From assembly GCA_964016885.1 (NCBI GenBank), contig OZ024750.1, forward strand, positions 25,730,001-25,794,000: a stretch of DNA of 64,000 nucleotides. Direction: 5' to 3'. How positions within the stretch are numbered: position 1 is the stretch's first letter; each line of letters starts with the position of its first letter. A model generated the notes under the pieces. That model saw only the letters and a list, made by a program, of their open reading frames with translations. It did not search any database and was not told the origin of the DNA. A program made the translations under genes and the position numbers. This DNA is from Eledone cirrhosa. Lineage: Eukaryota. Shown here in pieces: positions 1 through 57,734 of the stretch.

Positions 1-2359
1 ACGTATTACAATTAGATTCTCGATAAAAGCAAGGGAAGTAAATCTACGCGTTTCATTCTTATTAGAAATCGTCAGGACTACATATCCAGTGCTTTTATCG
101 AGAATGACGCAGCTAGAGACTTATAGAATACTTAGCTGTGTACAGGAACTGGTTTGAAAGAGCGGTTGCCGGTCCGGCAGAAATTAGAAATTGGAATAAA
201 TGCTCTGAAATAGCGATATATATGTGAATATAGACATAGAATATTCGAAAATATTCTGTATGTTTATAATAAACATTTTGAAGACCTAATCGCTATAGAA
301 TAGAATACGTCACGTATTACAATTAGATTCTCGATAAAAGCAAGGGAAGTAAATCTACGCGTTTCATTCTTATTAGAAATCGTCAGGACTACATATCCAG
401 TGCTTTTATCGAGAATGACGCAGCTAGAGACTTATAGAATACTTAGCTGTGTACAGGAACTGGTTTGAAAGAGCGGTTGCCGGTCCGGCAGAAATTAGAA
501 ATTGGAATAAATGCTCTGAAATAGCGATATATATGTGAATATAGACATAGAATATTCGAAAATATTCTGTATGTTTATAATAAACATTTTGAAGACCTAA
601 TCGCTATAGAATAGAATACGTCACGTATTACAATTAGATTCTCGATAAAAGCAAGGGAAGTAAATCTACGCGTTTCATTCTTATTAGAAATCGTCAGGAC
701 TACATATCCAGTGCTTTTATCGAGAATGACGCAGCTAGAGACTTATAGAATACTTAGCTGTGTACAGGAACTGGTTTGAAAGAGCGGTTGCCGGTCCGGC
801 AGAAATTAGAAATTGGAATAAATGCTCTGAAATAGCGATATATATGTGAATATAGACATAGAATATTCGAAAATATTCTGTATGTTTATAATAAACATTT
901 TGAAGACCTAATCGCTATAGAATAGAATACGTCACGTATTACAATTAGATTCTCGATAAAAGCAAGGGAAGTAAATCTACGCGTTTCATTCTTATTAGAA
1001 ATCGTCAGGACTACATATCCAGTGCTTTTATCGAGAATGACGCAGCTAGAGACTTATAGAATACTTAGCTGTGTACAGGAACTGGTTTGAAAGAGCGGTT
1101 GCCGGTCCGGCAGAAATTAGAAATTGGAATAAATGCTCTGAAATAGCGATATATATGTGAATATAGACATAGAATATTCGAAAATATTCTGTATGTTTAT
1201 AATAAACATTTTGAAGACCTAATCGCTATAGAATAGAATACGTCACGTATTACAATTAGATTCTCGATAAAAGCAAGGGAAGTAAATCTACGCGTTTCAT
1301 TCTTATTAGAAATCGTCAGGACTACATATCCAGTGCTTTTATCGAGAATGACGCAGCTAGAGACTTATAGAATACTTAGCTGTGTACAGGAACTGGTTTG
1401 AAAGAGCGGTTGCCGGTCCGGCAGAAATTAGAAATTGGAATAAATGCTCTGAAATAGCGATATATATGTGAATATAGACATAGAATATTCGAAAATATTC
1501 TGTATGTTTATAATAAACATTTTGAAGACCTAATCGCTATAGAATAGAATACGTCACGTATTACAATTAGATTCTCGATAAAAGCAAGGGAAGTAAATCT
1601 ACGCGTTTCATTCTTATTAGAAATCGTCAGGACTACATATCCAGTGCTTTTATCGAGAATGACGCAGCTAGAGACTTATAGAATACTTAGCTGTGTACAG
1701 GAACTGGTTTGAAAGAGCGGTTGCCGGTCCGGCAGAAATTAGAAATTGGAATAAATGCTCTGAAATAGCGATATATATGTGAATATAGACATAGAATATT
1801 CGAAAATATTCTGTATGTTTATAATAAACATTTTGAAGACCTAATCGCTATAGAATAGAATACGTCACGTATTACAATTAGATTCTCGATAAAAGCAAGG
1901 GAAGTAAATCTACGCGTTTCATTCTTATTAGAAATCGTCAGGACTACATATCCAGTGCTTTTATCGAGAATGACGCAGCTAGAGACTTATAGAATACTTA
2001 GCTGTGTACAGGAACTGGTTTGAAAGAGCGGTTGCCGGTCCGGCAGAAATTAGAAATTGGAATAAATGCTCTGAAATAGCGATATATATGTGAATATAGA
2101 CATAGAATATTCGAAAATATTCTGTATGTTTATAATAAACATTTTGAAGACCTAATCGCTATAGAATAGAATACGTCACGTATTACAATTAGATTCTCGA
2201 TAAAAGCAAGGGAAGTAAATCTACGCGTTTCATTCTTATTAGAAATCGTCAGGACTACATATCCAGTGCTTTTATCGAGAATGACGCAGCTAGAGACTTA
2301 TAGAATACTTAGCTGTGTACAGGAACTGGTTTGAAAGAGCGGTTGCCGGTCCGGCAGAA
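1..2359 (-). repeat. Left arm of 311-bp HHR-bearing tandem array (7.6 units, cut by window edge)
   Basis: ACGTATTACAATTAG recurs at 1, 312, 623, 934, 1245, 1556, 1867 and 2178. No unit differences seen by eye. HHR on minus strand at 38-81 + n*311 (8 copies). Confidence 0.97.
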
Positions 2360-5300
2360 GGTCTTCAAAATGTTTATTATAAACATACAGAATATTTTCG
2401 AATATTCTATGTCTATATTCACATATATATCGCTATTTCAGAGCATTTATTCCAATTTCTAATTTCTGCCGGACCGGCAACCGCTCTTTCAAACCAGTTC
2501 CTGTACACAGCTAAGTATTCTATAAGTCTCTAGCTGCGTCATTCTCGATAAAAGCACTGGATATGTAGTCCTGACGATTTCTAATAAGAATGAAACGCGT
2601 AGATTTACTTCCCTTGCTTTTATCGAGAATCTAATTGTAATACGTGACGTATTCTATTCTATAGCGATTAGGTCTTCAAAATGTTTATTATAAACATACA
2701 GAATATTTTCGAATATTCTATGTCTATATTCACATATATATCGCTATTTCAGAGCATTTATTCCAATTTCTAATTTCTGCCGGACCGGCAACCGCTCTTT
2801 CAAACCAGTTCCTGTACACAGCTAAGTATTCTATAAGTCTCTAGCTGCGTCATTCTCGATAAAAGCACTGGATATGTAGTCCTGACGATTTCTAATAAGA
2901 ATGAAACGCGTAGATTTACTTCCCTTGCTTTTATCGAGAATCTAATTGTAATACGTGACGTATTCTATTCTATAGCGATTAGGTCTTCAAAATGTTTATT
3001 ATAAACATACAGAATATTTTCGAATATTCTATGTCTATATTCACATATATATCGCTATTTCAGAGCATTTATTCCAATTTCTAATTTCTGCCGGACCGGC
3101 AACCGCTCTTTCAAACCAGTTCCTGTACACAGCTAAGTATTCTATAAGTCTCTAGCTGCGTCATTCTCGATAAAAGCACTGGATATGTAGTCCTGACGAT
3201 TTCTAATAAGAATGAAACGCGTAGATTTACTTCCCTTGCTTTTATCGAGAATCTAATTGTAATACGTGACGTATTCTATTCTATAGCGATTAGGTCTTCA
3301 AAATGTTTATTATAAACATACAGAATATTTTCGAATATTCTATGTCTATATTCACATATATATCGCTATTTCAGAGCATTTATTCCAATTTCTAATTTCT
3401 GCCGGACCGGCAACCGCTCTTTCAAACCAGTTCCTGTACACAGCTAAGTATTCTATAAGTCTCTAGCTGCGTCATTCTCGATAAAAGCACTGGATATGTA
3501 GTCCTGACGATTTCTAATAAGAATGAAACGCGTAGATTTACTTCCCTTGCTTTTATCGAGAATCTAATTGTAATACGTGACGTATTCTATTCTATAGCGA
3601 TTAGGTCTTCAAAATGTTTATTATAAACATACAGAATATTTTCGAATATTCTATGTCTATATTCACATATATATCGCTATTTCAGAGCATTTATTCCAAT
3701 TTCTAATTTCTGCCGGACCGGCAACCGCTCTTTCAAACCAGTTCCTGTACACAGCTAAGTATTCTATAAGTCTCTAGCTGCGTCATTCTCGATAAAAGCA
3801 CTGGATATGTAGTCCTGACGATTTCTAATAAGAATGAAACGCGTAGATTTACTTCCCTTGCTTTTATCGAGAATCTAATTGTAATACGTGACGTATTCTA
3901 TTCTATAGCGATTAGGTCTTCAAAATGTTTATTATAAACATACAGAATATTTTCGAATATTCTATGTCTATATTCACATATATATCGCTATTTCAGAGCA
4001 TTTATTCCAATTTCTAATTTCTGCCGGACCGGCAACCGCTCTTTCAAACCAGTTCCTGTACACAGCTAAGTATTCTATAAGTCTCTAGCTGCGTCATTCT
4101 CGATAAAAGCACTGGATATGTAGTCCTGACGATTTCTAATAAGAATGAAACGCGTAGATTTACTTCCCTTGCTTTTATCGAGAATCTAATTGTAATACGT
4201 GACGTATTCTATTCTATAGCGATTAGGTCTTCAAAATGTTTATTATAAACATACAGAATATTTTCGAATATTCTATGTCTATATTCACATATATATCGCT
4301 ATTTCAGAGCATTTATTCCAATTTCTAATTTCTGCCGGACCGGCAACCGCTCTTTCAAACCAGTTCCTGTACACAGCTAAGTATTCTATAAGTCTCTAGC
4401 TGCGTCATTCTCGATAAAAGCACTGGATATGTAGTCCTGACGATTTCTAATAAGAATGAAACGCGTAGATTTACTTCCCTTGCTTTTATCGAGAATCTAA
4501 TTGTAATACGTGACGTATTCTATTCTATAGCGATTAGGTCTTCAAAATGTTTATTATAAACATACAGAATATTTTCGAATATTCTATGTCTATATTCACA
4601 TATATATCGCTATTTCAGAGCATTTATTCCAATTTCTAATTTCTGCCGGACCGGCAACCGCTCTTTCAAACCAGTTCCTGTACACAGCTAAGTATTCTAT
4701 AAGTCTCTAGCTGCGTCATTCTCGATAAAAGCACTGGATATGTAGTCCTGACGATTTCTAATAAGAATGAAACGCGTAGATTTACTTCCCTTGCTTTTAT
4801 CGAGAATCTAATTGTAATACGTGACGTATTCTATTCTATAGCGATTAGGTCTTCAAAATGTTTATTATAAACATACAGAATATTTTCGAATATTCTATGT
4901 CTATATTCACATATATATCGCTATTTCAGAGCATTTATTCCAATTTCTAATTTCTGCCGGACCGGCAACCGCTCTTTCAAACCAGTTCCTGTACACAGCT
5001 AAGTATTCTATAAGTCTCTAGCTGCGTCATTCTCGATAAAAGCACTGGATATGTAGTCCTGACGATTTCTAATAAGAATGAAACGCGTAGATTTACTTCC
5101 CTTGCTTTTATCGAGAATCTAATTGTAATACGTGACGTATTCTATTCTATAGCGATTAGGTCTTCAAAATGTTTATTATAAACATACAGAATATTTTCGA
5201 ATATTCTATGTCTATATTCACATATATATCGCTATTTCAGAGCATTTATTCCAATTTCTAATTTCTGCCGGACCGGCAACCGCTCTTTCAAACCAGTTCC

Positions 5301-5528
5301 TGTACACAGCTAAGTATTCTATAAGTCTCTAGCTGCGTCATTCTCGATAAAAGCACTGGATATGTAGTCCTGACGATTTCTAATAAGAATGAAACGCGTA
5401 GATTTACTTCCCTTGCTTTTATCGAGAATCTAATTGTAATACGTGACGTATTCTATTCTATAGCGATTAGGTCTTCAAAATGTTTATTATAAACATACAG
5501 AATATTTTCGAATATTCTATGTCTATAT
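2360..5528 (+). repeat. Right, inverted arm of the 311-bp array (10.2 units), ending in (TA)n
   Basis: GGTCTTCAAAATG at 2360, 2671, 2982 ... 5159, 5470. It is the reverse complement of the left-arm unit and merges into the TA tract at TGTCTATAT. Confidence 0.97.
2565..2608 (+). ncRNA. Type-I hammerhead ribozyme of the 311-bp unit (representative; repeats every 311 bp to 5364-5407)
   Basis: GTAGTC-CTGACGA-T TTCT AATA AGAA T-GAAA-CGCG-TA-GATTTAC. Core complete, helix III palindromic (CGCG), predicted cut after 2601. Enclosed by a perfect 16-bp inverted repeat at 2541-2556/2615-2630. Confidence 0.82.
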
Positions 5529-5626
5529 ATATATACATATATATACATATATATGTTTATATACATATATATATACATATATATACATATATATATATAT
5601 ATATGTTTATATACATATATATATAA

Positions 5627-55595: not shown

Positions 55596-56010
55596 GTAGG
55601 AGGTGAGTTTTATTGTAGTACAATAAAGCAATGCAGATATCGGATAAGAAGCACTCTACAGTTTGTAGGACTGGAGTATACATAATATATAAGAACAAAA
55701 GATGGTTAAAAGAGTTCCATGTATTTTATTACGCGCATTTCAAAAACAAATATCATCATGCAATAATATTTGTGTTTTCATCAGATAAAACAGGAGGACA
55801 TGATATGAAGGTTAAAAAACACTTGTGGATAGTGCAGTTTTAAATCAACATATAACTGCACTATCCACAAGTGTTTTTTAACCTTCATATCATGTCCTCC
55901 TGTTTTATCTGATGAAAACACAAATATTATTGCATGATGATATTTGTTTTTGAAATGCGCATAATAAAATACATGGAACTCTTTTAACCATCTTTTGTTC
56001 TTATATATTA
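55596..56010. mobile_element. Family 'TGCGCA' fold-back with two intact HHRs (minus about 55724-55790, plus 55903-55969)
   Basis: TTTTAT-CTGATGA-long helix II-GAAA-TGCGCA-TA-ATAAAA; arms nearly identical. Confidence 0.88.
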
Positions 56011-56164
56011 TATATAGATATAGATATACACACATAGGAAAAGAGTCAGGACCTCGACGGCTGAGCTTCGGTTGTTTCGACAGCTATCTCAAACAAAACA
56101 GGCAGCACGATGTAGTTGTTCAGTGCGTTCAGAGAGCTCAGCCATCGGGGTCCTGACTCTTTTC

Positions 56165-56191
<27 letters not shown>

Positions 56192-56197
<6 letters not shown>

Positions 56198-56620
56198 ATT
56201 AAATAAATGGAAAACTATATTTATAAAACCATATTTATTTCATTATATATATTTCGGGGATATCATATTAACAATATGCTATGCCTTCATCAGACAAAAT
56301 ACAATATAAACAGTTTTATAGATAAATATATTCGACATATTAGACTGCTAGAGTAAACCTCTTCAAATGAAGTTGATGTTTATTACGGTATGTCGAATAT
56401 ATTTATCTATAAAACTGTTTATATTGTATTTTGTCTGATGAAGGCATAGCATATTGTTAATATGATATCCCCGAAATATATATAATGAAATAAATATGGT
56501 TTTATAAATATAGTTTTCCATTTATTTAATATTGTAAATATACTCCAAATATTTGTCGAGTGCTTTTATATCAGTTATAAATATTTACTAGTTGTAACCC
56601 AACAATTTTAAATATAACTT

Positions 56621-56682: not shown

Positions 56683-56866
56683 GTGACTCTTTTTCTATTA
56701 CCCACTTTACTACCCATAGTATCGAGTACTCTGGTGCGTTATGGTCCACTTGGTTCCTTACCACACTTCCTTCGTTATATATATATACATATATACATAT
56801 GTATATATATATATACATATATATATACAGATGTGAGAAAAACCACAGACCCTCCATCTCAACTCA

Positions 56867-56904
56867 CCTTTTGAAAAGCAGAAGAACTGCGAAACCGGTA
56901 AAGG
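56867..56904 (+). ncRNA. Minimal hammerhead with U3-A8 core variant
   Basis: CCTT-TTGAAAA-GCAG AAGAA CTGC-GAAA-CCGG-TA-AAGG. Confidence 0.72.
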
Positions 56905-57092
56905 AACCAAATAAATATATATATTTTTAAAAAAAATAAGACTCCAGTTGCATTTTCGATTTCATCTCTTTTTCTTTATAGTTTCACTCGTGTAGGACAC
57001 CTCGGTTATTTTTCATTTTGTAAAAAAAACCCTCACTTTCTATTCTTTCTCACGTCGTGTAGACGCGTTCTTGAGACTAGTAAAATAAGGTA

Positions 57093-57180
57093 TCCTCTTG
57101 ATAAGTCGGCAGACCTCGCAAGGACTCTATATCTTTGATATATTGTTTTTGTTTATGCCACGAAACTACGTAGTCGAGGA
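57093..57180 (+). ncRNA. Second hammerhead with U3-A8 core variant
   Basis: TCCTC-TTGATAA-GT(C)GGCA...TGCCAC-GAAA-CTACGTAG-TC-GAGGA. Confidence 0.72.
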
Positions 57181-57463
57181 ATTTAGGAGCAGTTTAGGTG
57201 TGATACATTTTATTACTAATTATATCTAAATGTTTCTTCTCCCTTCATAATGTATTTTTAACTCTGATACTGGTTCAGTCTAGTTCAACTGAATTGGTCT
57301 GTCCCAGTCATTCATTGAGCAACATCGGTGAAGTTGGCACCCTTAACTCACAGTTGGGTGCGGATGCATTCATGTATATATGTGTGTGTCCGCATGTATC
57401 TGTGTGTTTCTAAATATATTATTATATATATATATATATATATAGAGTAGTAGAGTGGGTAAT

Positions 57464-57574
57464 AGGAAAATGTTCAACGCCGACGGCAGAGCTCAAGCCG
57501 TTTCGACGGCTATTTCTGGCAGAAATAGTCGTCGAAACGGCTTGAGCTCTGCCGTCGGGGTTGAACATTTTCCT
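57464..57574. mobile_element. Family 'CGGC/GCCG' fold-back palindrome
   Basis: AGGAAAATGTTCAACGCCGACGGCAG...CTGCCGTCGGGGTTGAACATTTTCCT; diverged relatives at 49538-49622 and 56034-56168. Confidence 0.78.
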
Positions 57575-57734
57575 TTTAATAAATATTTGCTCTACGGTTC
57601 TTATATATTTGATATATATTTATCCTTATCGAGCCCTCTTTGGATTTTAGTCTTCAAATTTATTATTATTACTATATATATATGTATATATATATATGTG
57701 TGTGTGTGTGAGAGAGACAGAGATATAGAGGGTT

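What the first reader, a model, noticed from the sequence alone, without database searches (positions are those of the whole stretch)
56867..57180. Two neighbouring hammerheads both carrying the compensatory U3-A8 catalytic core
Seen: cores TTGAAAA (56871-56877) and TTGATAA (57098-57104) replace CTGANGA, while helices I and II, GAAA and palindromic helix III (CCGG; CTACGTAG) are intact. The two motifs share no helix sequence. Known: positions 3 and 8 form a tertiary Watson-Crick pair in the active fold, and U3-A8 is an uncommon natural variant. Inference: the same double change in two different motifs about 230 nt apart suggests a functional lineage that CUGANGA searches miss. Cleavage at both sites (after 56900 and 57175) would release an RNA of about 275 nt.
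Basis: partly seen in the sequence, partly recalled or inferred. Interest (0 to 1): 0.72.

Follow-up and report, generated by a model that had tools for sequence, protein, structure and literature searches.

The report
Two unrelated jumping genes, fused hammerheads
The two self-cutting-RNA motifs are real and share a rare but already published core swap, but they belong to two unrelated, very abundant jumping elements that happen to be fused at this one spot, so they are likely not a working pair.

Summary
Both U3-A8 type I hammerheads are present as described. They are not one element. Motif 1 sits in a 215-nt piece of an autonomous Neptune-type Penelope-like element (family A, 6,323 motif hits). 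Motif 2 sits in a 5'-truncated unit of a 590-593-nt ORF-less retrozyme (family B, 5,509 hits). U3 is fixed in both (non-U3: 17 and 9 hits, none C3-G8). The A-B junction occurs once in the genome, about 1.7 such neighbours are expected by chance, and the two helix III palindromes cannot pair, so the 275-nt RNA is probably an accident. U3-A8 in Penelope hammerheads was published in 2014, and this scan has already noted family B elsewhere in this genome. Added here: (1) U3-A8 is shared by several Neptune relatives of A, while a further relative has C3-G8; (2) A copies mostly start about 72 nt upstream of the cut site, below a TATA box, so their templates were uncut; (3) a sister family with 11,400 hits also changed the conserved A13 to C; (4) B arrays share array-wide A-to-G changes, as expected if each was copied from one edited RNA circle. 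Cleavage itself is untested.

The parts
56828..57042 (+). Family A piece: terminal repeat (pLTR) of an autonomous Neptune-type Penelope-like element, from its commonest 5' end to its long 3' end
   Evidence: 97-99% matches end at 57042 followed by (TA)n in the other copies shown; longer copies carry ORF1 and an RT + CxxxxCxxC linker + GIY-YIG ORF2
56828..56835 (+). Inferred transcription start of family A (CAGATG); the TATAAAA box 30 nt upstream in full copies is replaced here by a TA tract
   Evidence: 22 of 53 A 5' ends fall at -75..-66 from the cut site; promoter context
56867..56904 (+). Hammerhead 1: minimal type I, U3-A8 core, palindromic helix III, predicted cut after 56900
56980..56980 (+). 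Short 3' end used by other A copies (80 nt after the cut site)
57042..57043 (+). A-B junction, one shared base, no TA tract between
   Evidence: unique in the genome with up to 1 mismatch; for this A-run variant 105 ends continue with A and 2 do not
57042..57424 (+). Family B piece: 5'-truncated unit of a 590-593-nt ORF-less tandem element (retrozyme-like), ending at its long 3' end
   Evidence: differs from the family majority at 4 of 383 positions
57093..57180 (+). Hammerhead 2: type I, U3-A8 core, bulged helix II with a 44-nt hairpin insert, 10-nt palindromic helix III, predicted cut after 57175
57255..57255 (+). Short 3' end used by other B copies (80 nt after the cut site)
56776..56827 (.). 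TA-rich microsatellite, upstream target
57416..57444 (.). TA-rich microsatellite, downstream target (overlaps the B end)

Best explanation
The two U3-A8 hammerheads belong to two separate high-copy mobile elements, a Neptune-type Penelope-like retrotransposon (A) and a non-coding 590-593-nt tandem element (B), that are fused at this one locus, likely by chance of shared insertion into TA repeats, and each motif is predicted to cut only with a copy of its own kind. Shown: the two families, their ends, the unique junction and the fixed U3-A8 cores. Inferred for A: transcription starts about 72 nt upstream of the cut site; the single hammerhead near the 5' end mostly stays uncut, and the element's RT-endonuclease primes internally 80 or 142 nt after the cut site and copies back to the RNA start, which gives the 215-nt piece seen here. 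Inferred for B: tandem transcripts fold as double hammerheads through the 10-bp helix III, are cut to unit length and circularised, and a borrowed Penelope-type enzyme copies the circle into TA tracts. The 275-nt RNA would need two independent cuts at a locus that has lost its own promoter box, and it probably has no role.
For: Separate homology blocks meeting at 57042. Junction unique; none of the contig pieces listed for four public runs bridges it, and three of the four runs show both native ends as loose ends. Chance expectation 1.7; a B-then-A neighbour pair exists at another locus. Homodimers fold into double hammerheads and the A+B pair does not. A: ORFs and pLTRs 4.66 kb apart; 5' ends 22 of 53 at -75..-66 and 2 of 53 at the cut site; this matches the in vitro finding that uncut RNA is the main substrate of an anole Penelope-like element (PMC11167929). 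B: 36 units in 20 arrays differ by 1.2 within and 9.7 between arrays; array-wide variants are A>G at 14 sites against T>C at 4 (p = 8e-4), while unit-private variants are A>G in 2 of 19; 24 5' ends are spread round the unit with no excess at the cut site (13 against 17 in a control position); circular fold z = -6.6.
Against: No cleavage or circle was observed. In a pairwise mutagenesis of a type III hammerhead only the G-C swap rescued positions 3/8, and other double mutants there were of low activity (PMC9901934, passage), so U3-A8 may cut poorly. In local context the B and A monomers do not form helices I and III in the predicted ensemble (pair probabilities 0.0). The junction sits exactly at A's long end with no TA tract, which a template switch would explain as well as two insertions would. 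Array-wide variants could also come from homogeneous source arrays, and they were polarised only by the family majority. The enzyme that moves B is not identified.
Confidence: 0.8

Rival explanations
1. The chimera was made in one event: the family A enzyme started on a B RNA and switched to an A RNA at its priming site, then copied to the A transcription start. The neighbours are then mechanistically linked (A is a helper of B), although the 275-nt RNA still has no function.
For: Junction at A's exact long end without TA; both pieces are young; the short ends of A and B both lie 80 nt after the cut site; another B array is fused to the ORF of a different Penelope-like family at a 5-nt microhomology (L016/L065).
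Against: Only one A-B junction. Of 10 non-inverted B 5' junctions read, 4 join non-TA sequence, so loss of the upstream TA tract is common. The other chimera points to a different helper.
Confidence: 0.3
2. One reading: the two hammerheads act together and release a functional RNA of about 275 nt, and they represent one U3-A8 lineage.
For: Same strand, both motifs intact, U3-A8 fixed in both families.
Against: Unique junction, chance expectation 1.7, no heteroduplex, no sequence homology between A and B, and U3-A8 in at least four unrelated groups of this genome, one with a C3-G8 relative.
Confidence: 0.04
3. The U3-A8 hammerhead of the Neptune lineage is catalytically weak or dead and is kept as a folded or dimerising signal; the swap was a step in the decay of catalysis.
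For: A templates mostly uncut; sister family A2 has U3-A8 plus C13 and only three A-U pairs in helix I, yet gives 11,400 hits; relative A3 has lost helix I (one insertion); cleavage is dispensable in vitro (PMC11167929).
Against: All other core bases, the UH triplet and the palindrome are kept in A, A2, L282 and L283 with compensatory helix changes, which suggests selection on the catalytic fold. A weak excess of A 5' ends near the cut site (202 against 96) is possible but confounded.
Confidence: 0.35

Closest known systems
Minimal hammerheads of metazoan Penelope-like elements, including the U3-A8 variant of Schistosoma mansoni Cercyon elements (Cervera and de la Pena 2014, PMC4209133; parts 1-2 of 4 read)
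   Same: Type I, short helix I, palindromic helix III, location in the pLTR, mostly single truncated copies and inverted pairs, U3-A8 covariation, predicted dimer action.
   Different: Here in a Neptune-type lineage of another animal group, with thousands of near-identical young copies, a 4-bp helix II without the extra base after A9, and a sister family with C13.
Neptune-clade EN+ Penelope-like elements (Craig et al. 2021, PMC8557442; passages read) and the Poseidon element PAc (Frangieh et al. 2024, PMC11167929; parts 1-2 of 4 read)
   Same: RT with C-terminal GIY-YIG, cysteine linker, pLTRs, inverted truncated copies, optional tail from two priming sites, TA targets.
   Different: U3-A8 core; a separate ORF1 overlapping ORF2; a clear pile-up of 5' ends at a TATA-linked start. 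Clade assignment rests on the linker motif, not on a tree with reference elements.
Animal non-LTR retrozymes (Cervera and de la Pena 2020, PMC7229834, parts 2-3 of 6 read; Li et al. 2026, 10.64898/2026.07.22.740005, parts 1 and 3 of 5 read)
   Same: ORF-less tandem units with one type I hammerhead each, strongly self-paired circular fold, presumed Penelope helper.
   Different: Family B unit is 590-593 nt (published 170-400 nt), has a U3-A8 core and a long loop II insert, and its arrays carry array-wide A>G changes; circular RNA not shown here.
Natural core variants of the hammerhead (Perreault et al. 2011, PMC3088659; passages and part 3 of 8 read)
   Same: U3-A8 covariation reported in several natural examples and said to be active in vitro in earlier work.
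   Different: The text read names no A13 substitution (it has an insertion, U13a); the figure itself and the supplements were not seen.

Membership tests
Type I hammerhead ribozyme | Three helices around the core in type I order | tested here: met
   helix III only as an intermolecular palindrome for motif 1
Type I hammerhead ribozyme | Consensus core C3 U4 G5 A6 N7 G8 A9 / G12 A13 A14 / A15.1-U16.1 / H17 | tested here: not met
   U3 and A8 replace C3 and G8 in both motifs; all other positions conform. This is the published U3-A8 variant
Type I hammerhead ribozyme | Watson-Crick pair possible between positions 3 and 8 | tested here: met
   U-A in 43 of 43 full A copies and 51 of 51 full B copies (7 and 3 partial hits dropped); C-G in relatives L249 and L065
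Type I hammerhead ribozyme | Self-cleavage after H17 | not testable with these tools
   genomic footprints inconclusive for A, absent for B
Penelope-like element (family A) | RT plus C-terminal GIY-YIG endonuclease | tested here: met
   Pfam RVT_1 and GIY-YIG above cut-off in L073 ORF2; many open frames of 775 aa
Penelope-like element (family A) | pLTRs with hammerhead, partial tandems, inverted truncated copies, tail | tested here: met
Neptune clade (family A) | Cysteine linker before GIY-YIG and TA targeting | tested here: met
   CxxxxCxxC motif and TA flanks
Neptune clade (family A) | Placement among reference Neptune RTs in a tree | not tested
   no reference sequences were available; the tree holds only this genome's families
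Non-LTR retrozyme (family B) | ORF-less tandem unit with one type I hammerhead per unit | tested here: met
Non-LTR retrozyme (family B) | Unit of about 170-400 nt | tested here: not met
   590-595 nt in 35 of 36 units, 607 in one; a size range, not a mechanism, so B works like a retrozyme
Non-LTR retrozyme (family B) | Expressed as a circular RNA | tested here: inconclusive
   indirect only: array homogeneity, A>G bias, spread 5' ends, stable circular fold

The most novel reading that the evidence does not exclude
In this Neptune lineage the U3-A8 swap opened a path out of the canonical core: sister family A2 fixed a further A13-to-C change and still spread to about 11,400 copies. Either U3-A8-C13 is an undescribed active hammerhead core, or Penelope-like elements keep the hammerhead fold as a non-catalytic signal, which would show in vivo that cleavage is dispensable. 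Family B, with the same swap, seems to be copied from edited RNA circles, so one genome would hold an active and an inactive use of U3-A8 side by side.
Probability: 0.35. Interest if true: 0.62.

Novelty: new member of a known kind. Interest (0 to 1): 0.36.

Why it matters
The pair itself matters little: it is a chance fusion of two known kinds of element carrying a published core variant. The families are useful test material for an open question, namely what the hammerhead does for Penelope-like elements. A (U3-A8, A13), A2 (U3-A8, C13) and the L249 family (C3-G8) are a natural series at a homologous position in young, abundant elements. In 100 sampled 10-kb stretches, 13 of 56 descriptor hits had U3-A8 and 8 further A2 copies were missed for lack of GAAA, so consensus searches undercount hammerheads in this genome.

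Tried and rejected
Rfam: no hammerhead match in the listed hits for the window (150 of 298 rows shown) or on 56830-57300. No RNA holder was listed for the stretch, which says nothing about expression. Laying contigs gave no cover on 56828-56932, so motif 1 could not be compared across organisms. Cleavage footprint in A: 202 5' ends at -2..0 against 96 at +1..+3; rejected as evidence because the TA before the cut site matches the TA target and the two filters are not equivalent. Cleavage footprint in B: an apparent cluster near the cut site did not hold up. The Penelope-like family fused to B in L016/L065 was considered as B's parent; its own 3' end has a different, C3-G8 hammerhead and no B homology, so it is at most a helper. 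The tree of nine ORF pieces groups A2, L282 and L283 (89%) but separates A from the C3-G8 families with only 55% support, and the U3-A8-like A3 groups with a C3-G8 family (78%); a single origin of U3-A8 is therefore not established. An alternative register for the A2 motif using the GAAA in its loop fails the A15.1-U16.1 pair. One search used a pattern one base too long and counted an insertion variant (2 hits); it was not used. Przybilski and Hammann 2007 and Lunse et al. 2017 were not held and are known only from citing text. Searches for an A13C hammerhead or for U3-A8 spellings found nothing beyond PMC4209133 and PMC3088659; the library lacks most subscription papers and no supplements were read, so this is not proof of absence.

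Full report
Observation. Both motifs are at the stated coordinates and have complete type I hammerhead anatomy with U3 and A8 in place of C3 and G8. A descriptor of equal strength finds these 2 in the window and none in 60 locally resampled windows. Rfam does not report them. The predicted cut sites, after 56900 and 57175, are 275 nt apart.

Two elements, not one. The window lies in a 3.0-Gb assembly; it is an animal genome rich in TA repeats, and the group was not determined. A search with 56840-57300 returned, besides the locus itself, only matches beginning at 57042 or later (40 of 1,591 candidates scored). A search with 56828-57045 returned a second family ending at 57042 (40 of 1,045 scored). 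In the other copies shown, that family ends at the same base and continues with (TA)n. So the locus is family A from 56828 to its natural 3' end, joined directly to a 5'-truncated family B piece, inside a TA tract. The junction occurs once in the genome with up to one mismatch. For the A-run variant of this copy, 105 ends continue with A and 2 do not, one being this locus and the other a TA variant. With 6,323 and 5,509 motif hits, about 1.7 same-strand neighbours within 300 nt are expected by chance, before allowing for the shared TA target; a B-then-A pair 390 nt apart exists on another contig.

Family A. Longer copies carry ORF1 and an overlapping ORF2 with RT, a CxxxxCxxC linker and GIY-YIG, with the hammerhead in both terminal repeats 4.66 kb apart. 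All 150 scored hits to the endonuclease end were 98-100% identical and many lie in open frames of 775 aa. This is the layout of Neptune-type Penelope-like elements (PMC8557442, passages). Copies use two 3' ends, 80 and 142 nt after the cut site, like the two priming sites shown in vitro for an anole element (PMC11167929). Of 53 5' ends taken from 30 position-ordered loci and 100 sampled stretches, 22 lie at -75..-66 from the cut site and 2 at the cut site; inverted arms of one insertion were counted separately, one end was counted twice, and the far-upstream values may be alignment breaks. Full copies have TATAAAA 30 nt above that peak. I infer a polymerase II start there and mostly uncut templates, in line with the in vitro result that hammerhead mutants do not affect insertion. 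The piece in the window is exactly start-to-long-end.

Family B. It is a 590-593-nt unit without an ORF, in tandems of up to at least five units and in head-to-head inverted pairs, with 3' ends 80 and about 245 nt after the cut site. In 36 full units from 20 arrays, pairs differ by 1.2 positions within and 9.7 between arrays. In the 10 arrays with two or more units, 22 of 43 array-wide variants are A>G on the RNA strand against 7 T>C, while only 2 of 19 unit-private variants are A>G; by distinct sites 14 against 4, p = 8e-4 given base composition, and none of the 14 has a 5' G (that ADAR avoids a 5' G is recalled). The 24 sampled 5' ends are spread round the unit and genome-wide there is no excess at the cut site (13 against 17). 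The unit folds as a stable circle (z = -6.6 against 30 shuffles). Together these fit copying of one edited circular RNA per insertion, which implies unit-length cutting; homogeneous source arrays are the alternative. In contigs of organism C a diverged B relative has 11 substitutions and 5 gaps, and the changes listed at its depth all fall in the loop II insert. This scan had already described family B elsewhere in the genome as a Penelope-moved retrozyme.

The core swap. Genome-wide, 17 of 6,323 A hits and 9 of 5,509 B hits lack U3; all 26 keep A8 and none is C3-G8. Of the first 100 listed hits, 100 in A and 99 in B have A8. A8 variants were not counted genome-wide. These rates are those of neutral decay in young families, so they show inheritance from U3-A8 source elements and not activity. 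Across families the covariation is real: relatives of A at 45-58% amino-acid identity (A2, L282, L283) have U3-A8 with changed helix sequences, whereas the L139/L249 family, with the same upstream promoter motif, has C3-G8 (L282, L283 and L249 are single decayed copies read by eye). An older repeat family E has U3 in 17 of 18 aligned rows, two of which are duplicates, and the eighteenth, a 68% relative, has C3-G8. A further family F has U3-A8 at two loci. In 100 evenly spaced 10-kb stretches from eight contigs, the descriptor found 40 C3-G8 (11 from one array), 13 U3-A8 and 3 other cores. U3-A8 is therefore common in this genome and occurs in unrelated families; the tree is too weak to count origins.

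Can the two motifs work together? Each homodimer folds into a double hammerhead through its palindrome, fully for B and nearly for A; the A and B palindromes give only -0.9 kcal/mol together against -8.3 and -12.9. B could also form a 3-bp monomeric helix III, within about 1 kcal/mol of its best fold in isolation, but with flanks neither motif forms helices I and III in the predicted ensemble. A joint 275-nt product is thus unlikely.

Sister family A2. A pattern for this family gives 11,400 hits; 98 of the first 100 have G-C-A-A in place of G-A-A-A, and only 146 hits genome-wide have another base at position 13, spread over T, A and G. Helix III is the same palindrome as in A, helix II has a compensatory change, and helix I has only three A-U pairs. 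Contigs of organisms A, B and C cover the motif without a listed difference at that position. G12-A13-A14 is part of the core given as necessary for cleavage (PMC7151607, passage); that A13 changes are strongly deleterious is recalled. I found no report of such a natural variant (supplements and two key papers unseen).

Comparison and verdict. U3-A8 was reported in natural hammerheads in 2011 (PMC3088659) and in about 1,300 Penelope-linked motifs of Schistosoma in 2014 (PMC4209133). Activity data conflict: active in vitro according to the 2011 paper's citation, low in a later pairwise scan where only the G-C swap rescued (PMC9901934). The finding is a new member of a known kind and its proposed paired function is not supported. 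The A, A2 and L249 series and the editing trace in B arrays are the parts worth following up. Interest 0.36.

Noticed in passing
L248-L277, L153, L154, L158, L278 (family A2): Sister Neptune-type family, 11,400 pattern hits, whose hammerhead has U3-A8 plus C at the conserved position 13 and a 3-bp A-U helix I; 11 of 37 5' ends at -80..-65, at a start motif like that of family A.
   Followed up: partly
window 1-5540: Two inverted arms of a 311-bp tandem, 8 + 10 exact hammerhead copies with a canonical C3-G8 core and a U-U mismatch at the base of helix II; retrozyme-like, related to the 310-bp array in L152.
   Followed up: partly
window 33676(-)/33756(+), 55909(+), 56435(+), 62771(-)/62913(+): Canonical C3-G8 minimal hammerheads of other TA-inserting repeat families, mostly as inverted pairs (56435 read).
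   Followed up: no
L068:3200-8400 (G000:C1 near 50.6 Mb): Family B array whose six full units on both arms share a private set of changes, most of them A>G, like a hyper-edited template copied repeatedly.
   Followed up: yes
L016 / L065:1450-3660: 2.1 kb of the ORF of another Penelope-like family fused at a 5-nt microhomology to a B array inside one TA tract; looks like a template switch and names a candidate helper.
   Followed up: partly
L124, L203-L217, L065 (family E); L104, L275 (family F): Two more U3-A8 hammerhead families; E is older (about 78% between copies), has a long extended helix I, U4C in three copies and a C3-G8 relative.
   Followed up: partly
L070, L280 (family A3): Penelope-like relative with a U3-A8-like core right after its likely start site, a G-U-containing palindrome and no helix I; one insertion seen.
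   Followed up: no
window 56985-57001 and 57046-57066: A and B share a short similar stretch around TCGTGTAG near the junction; chance or a shared protein-binding signal.
   Followed up: no
window 56690-56780 and 57445-57580; 56034-56170; 55677-56016; 56186-56542: Further TA-inserting repeats with internal inversions flank the A-B chimera, showing the region is a nest of such insertions.
   Followed up: no
families A and B generally: The short 3' end lies 80 nt after the predicted cut site in both unrelated families.
   Followed up: no
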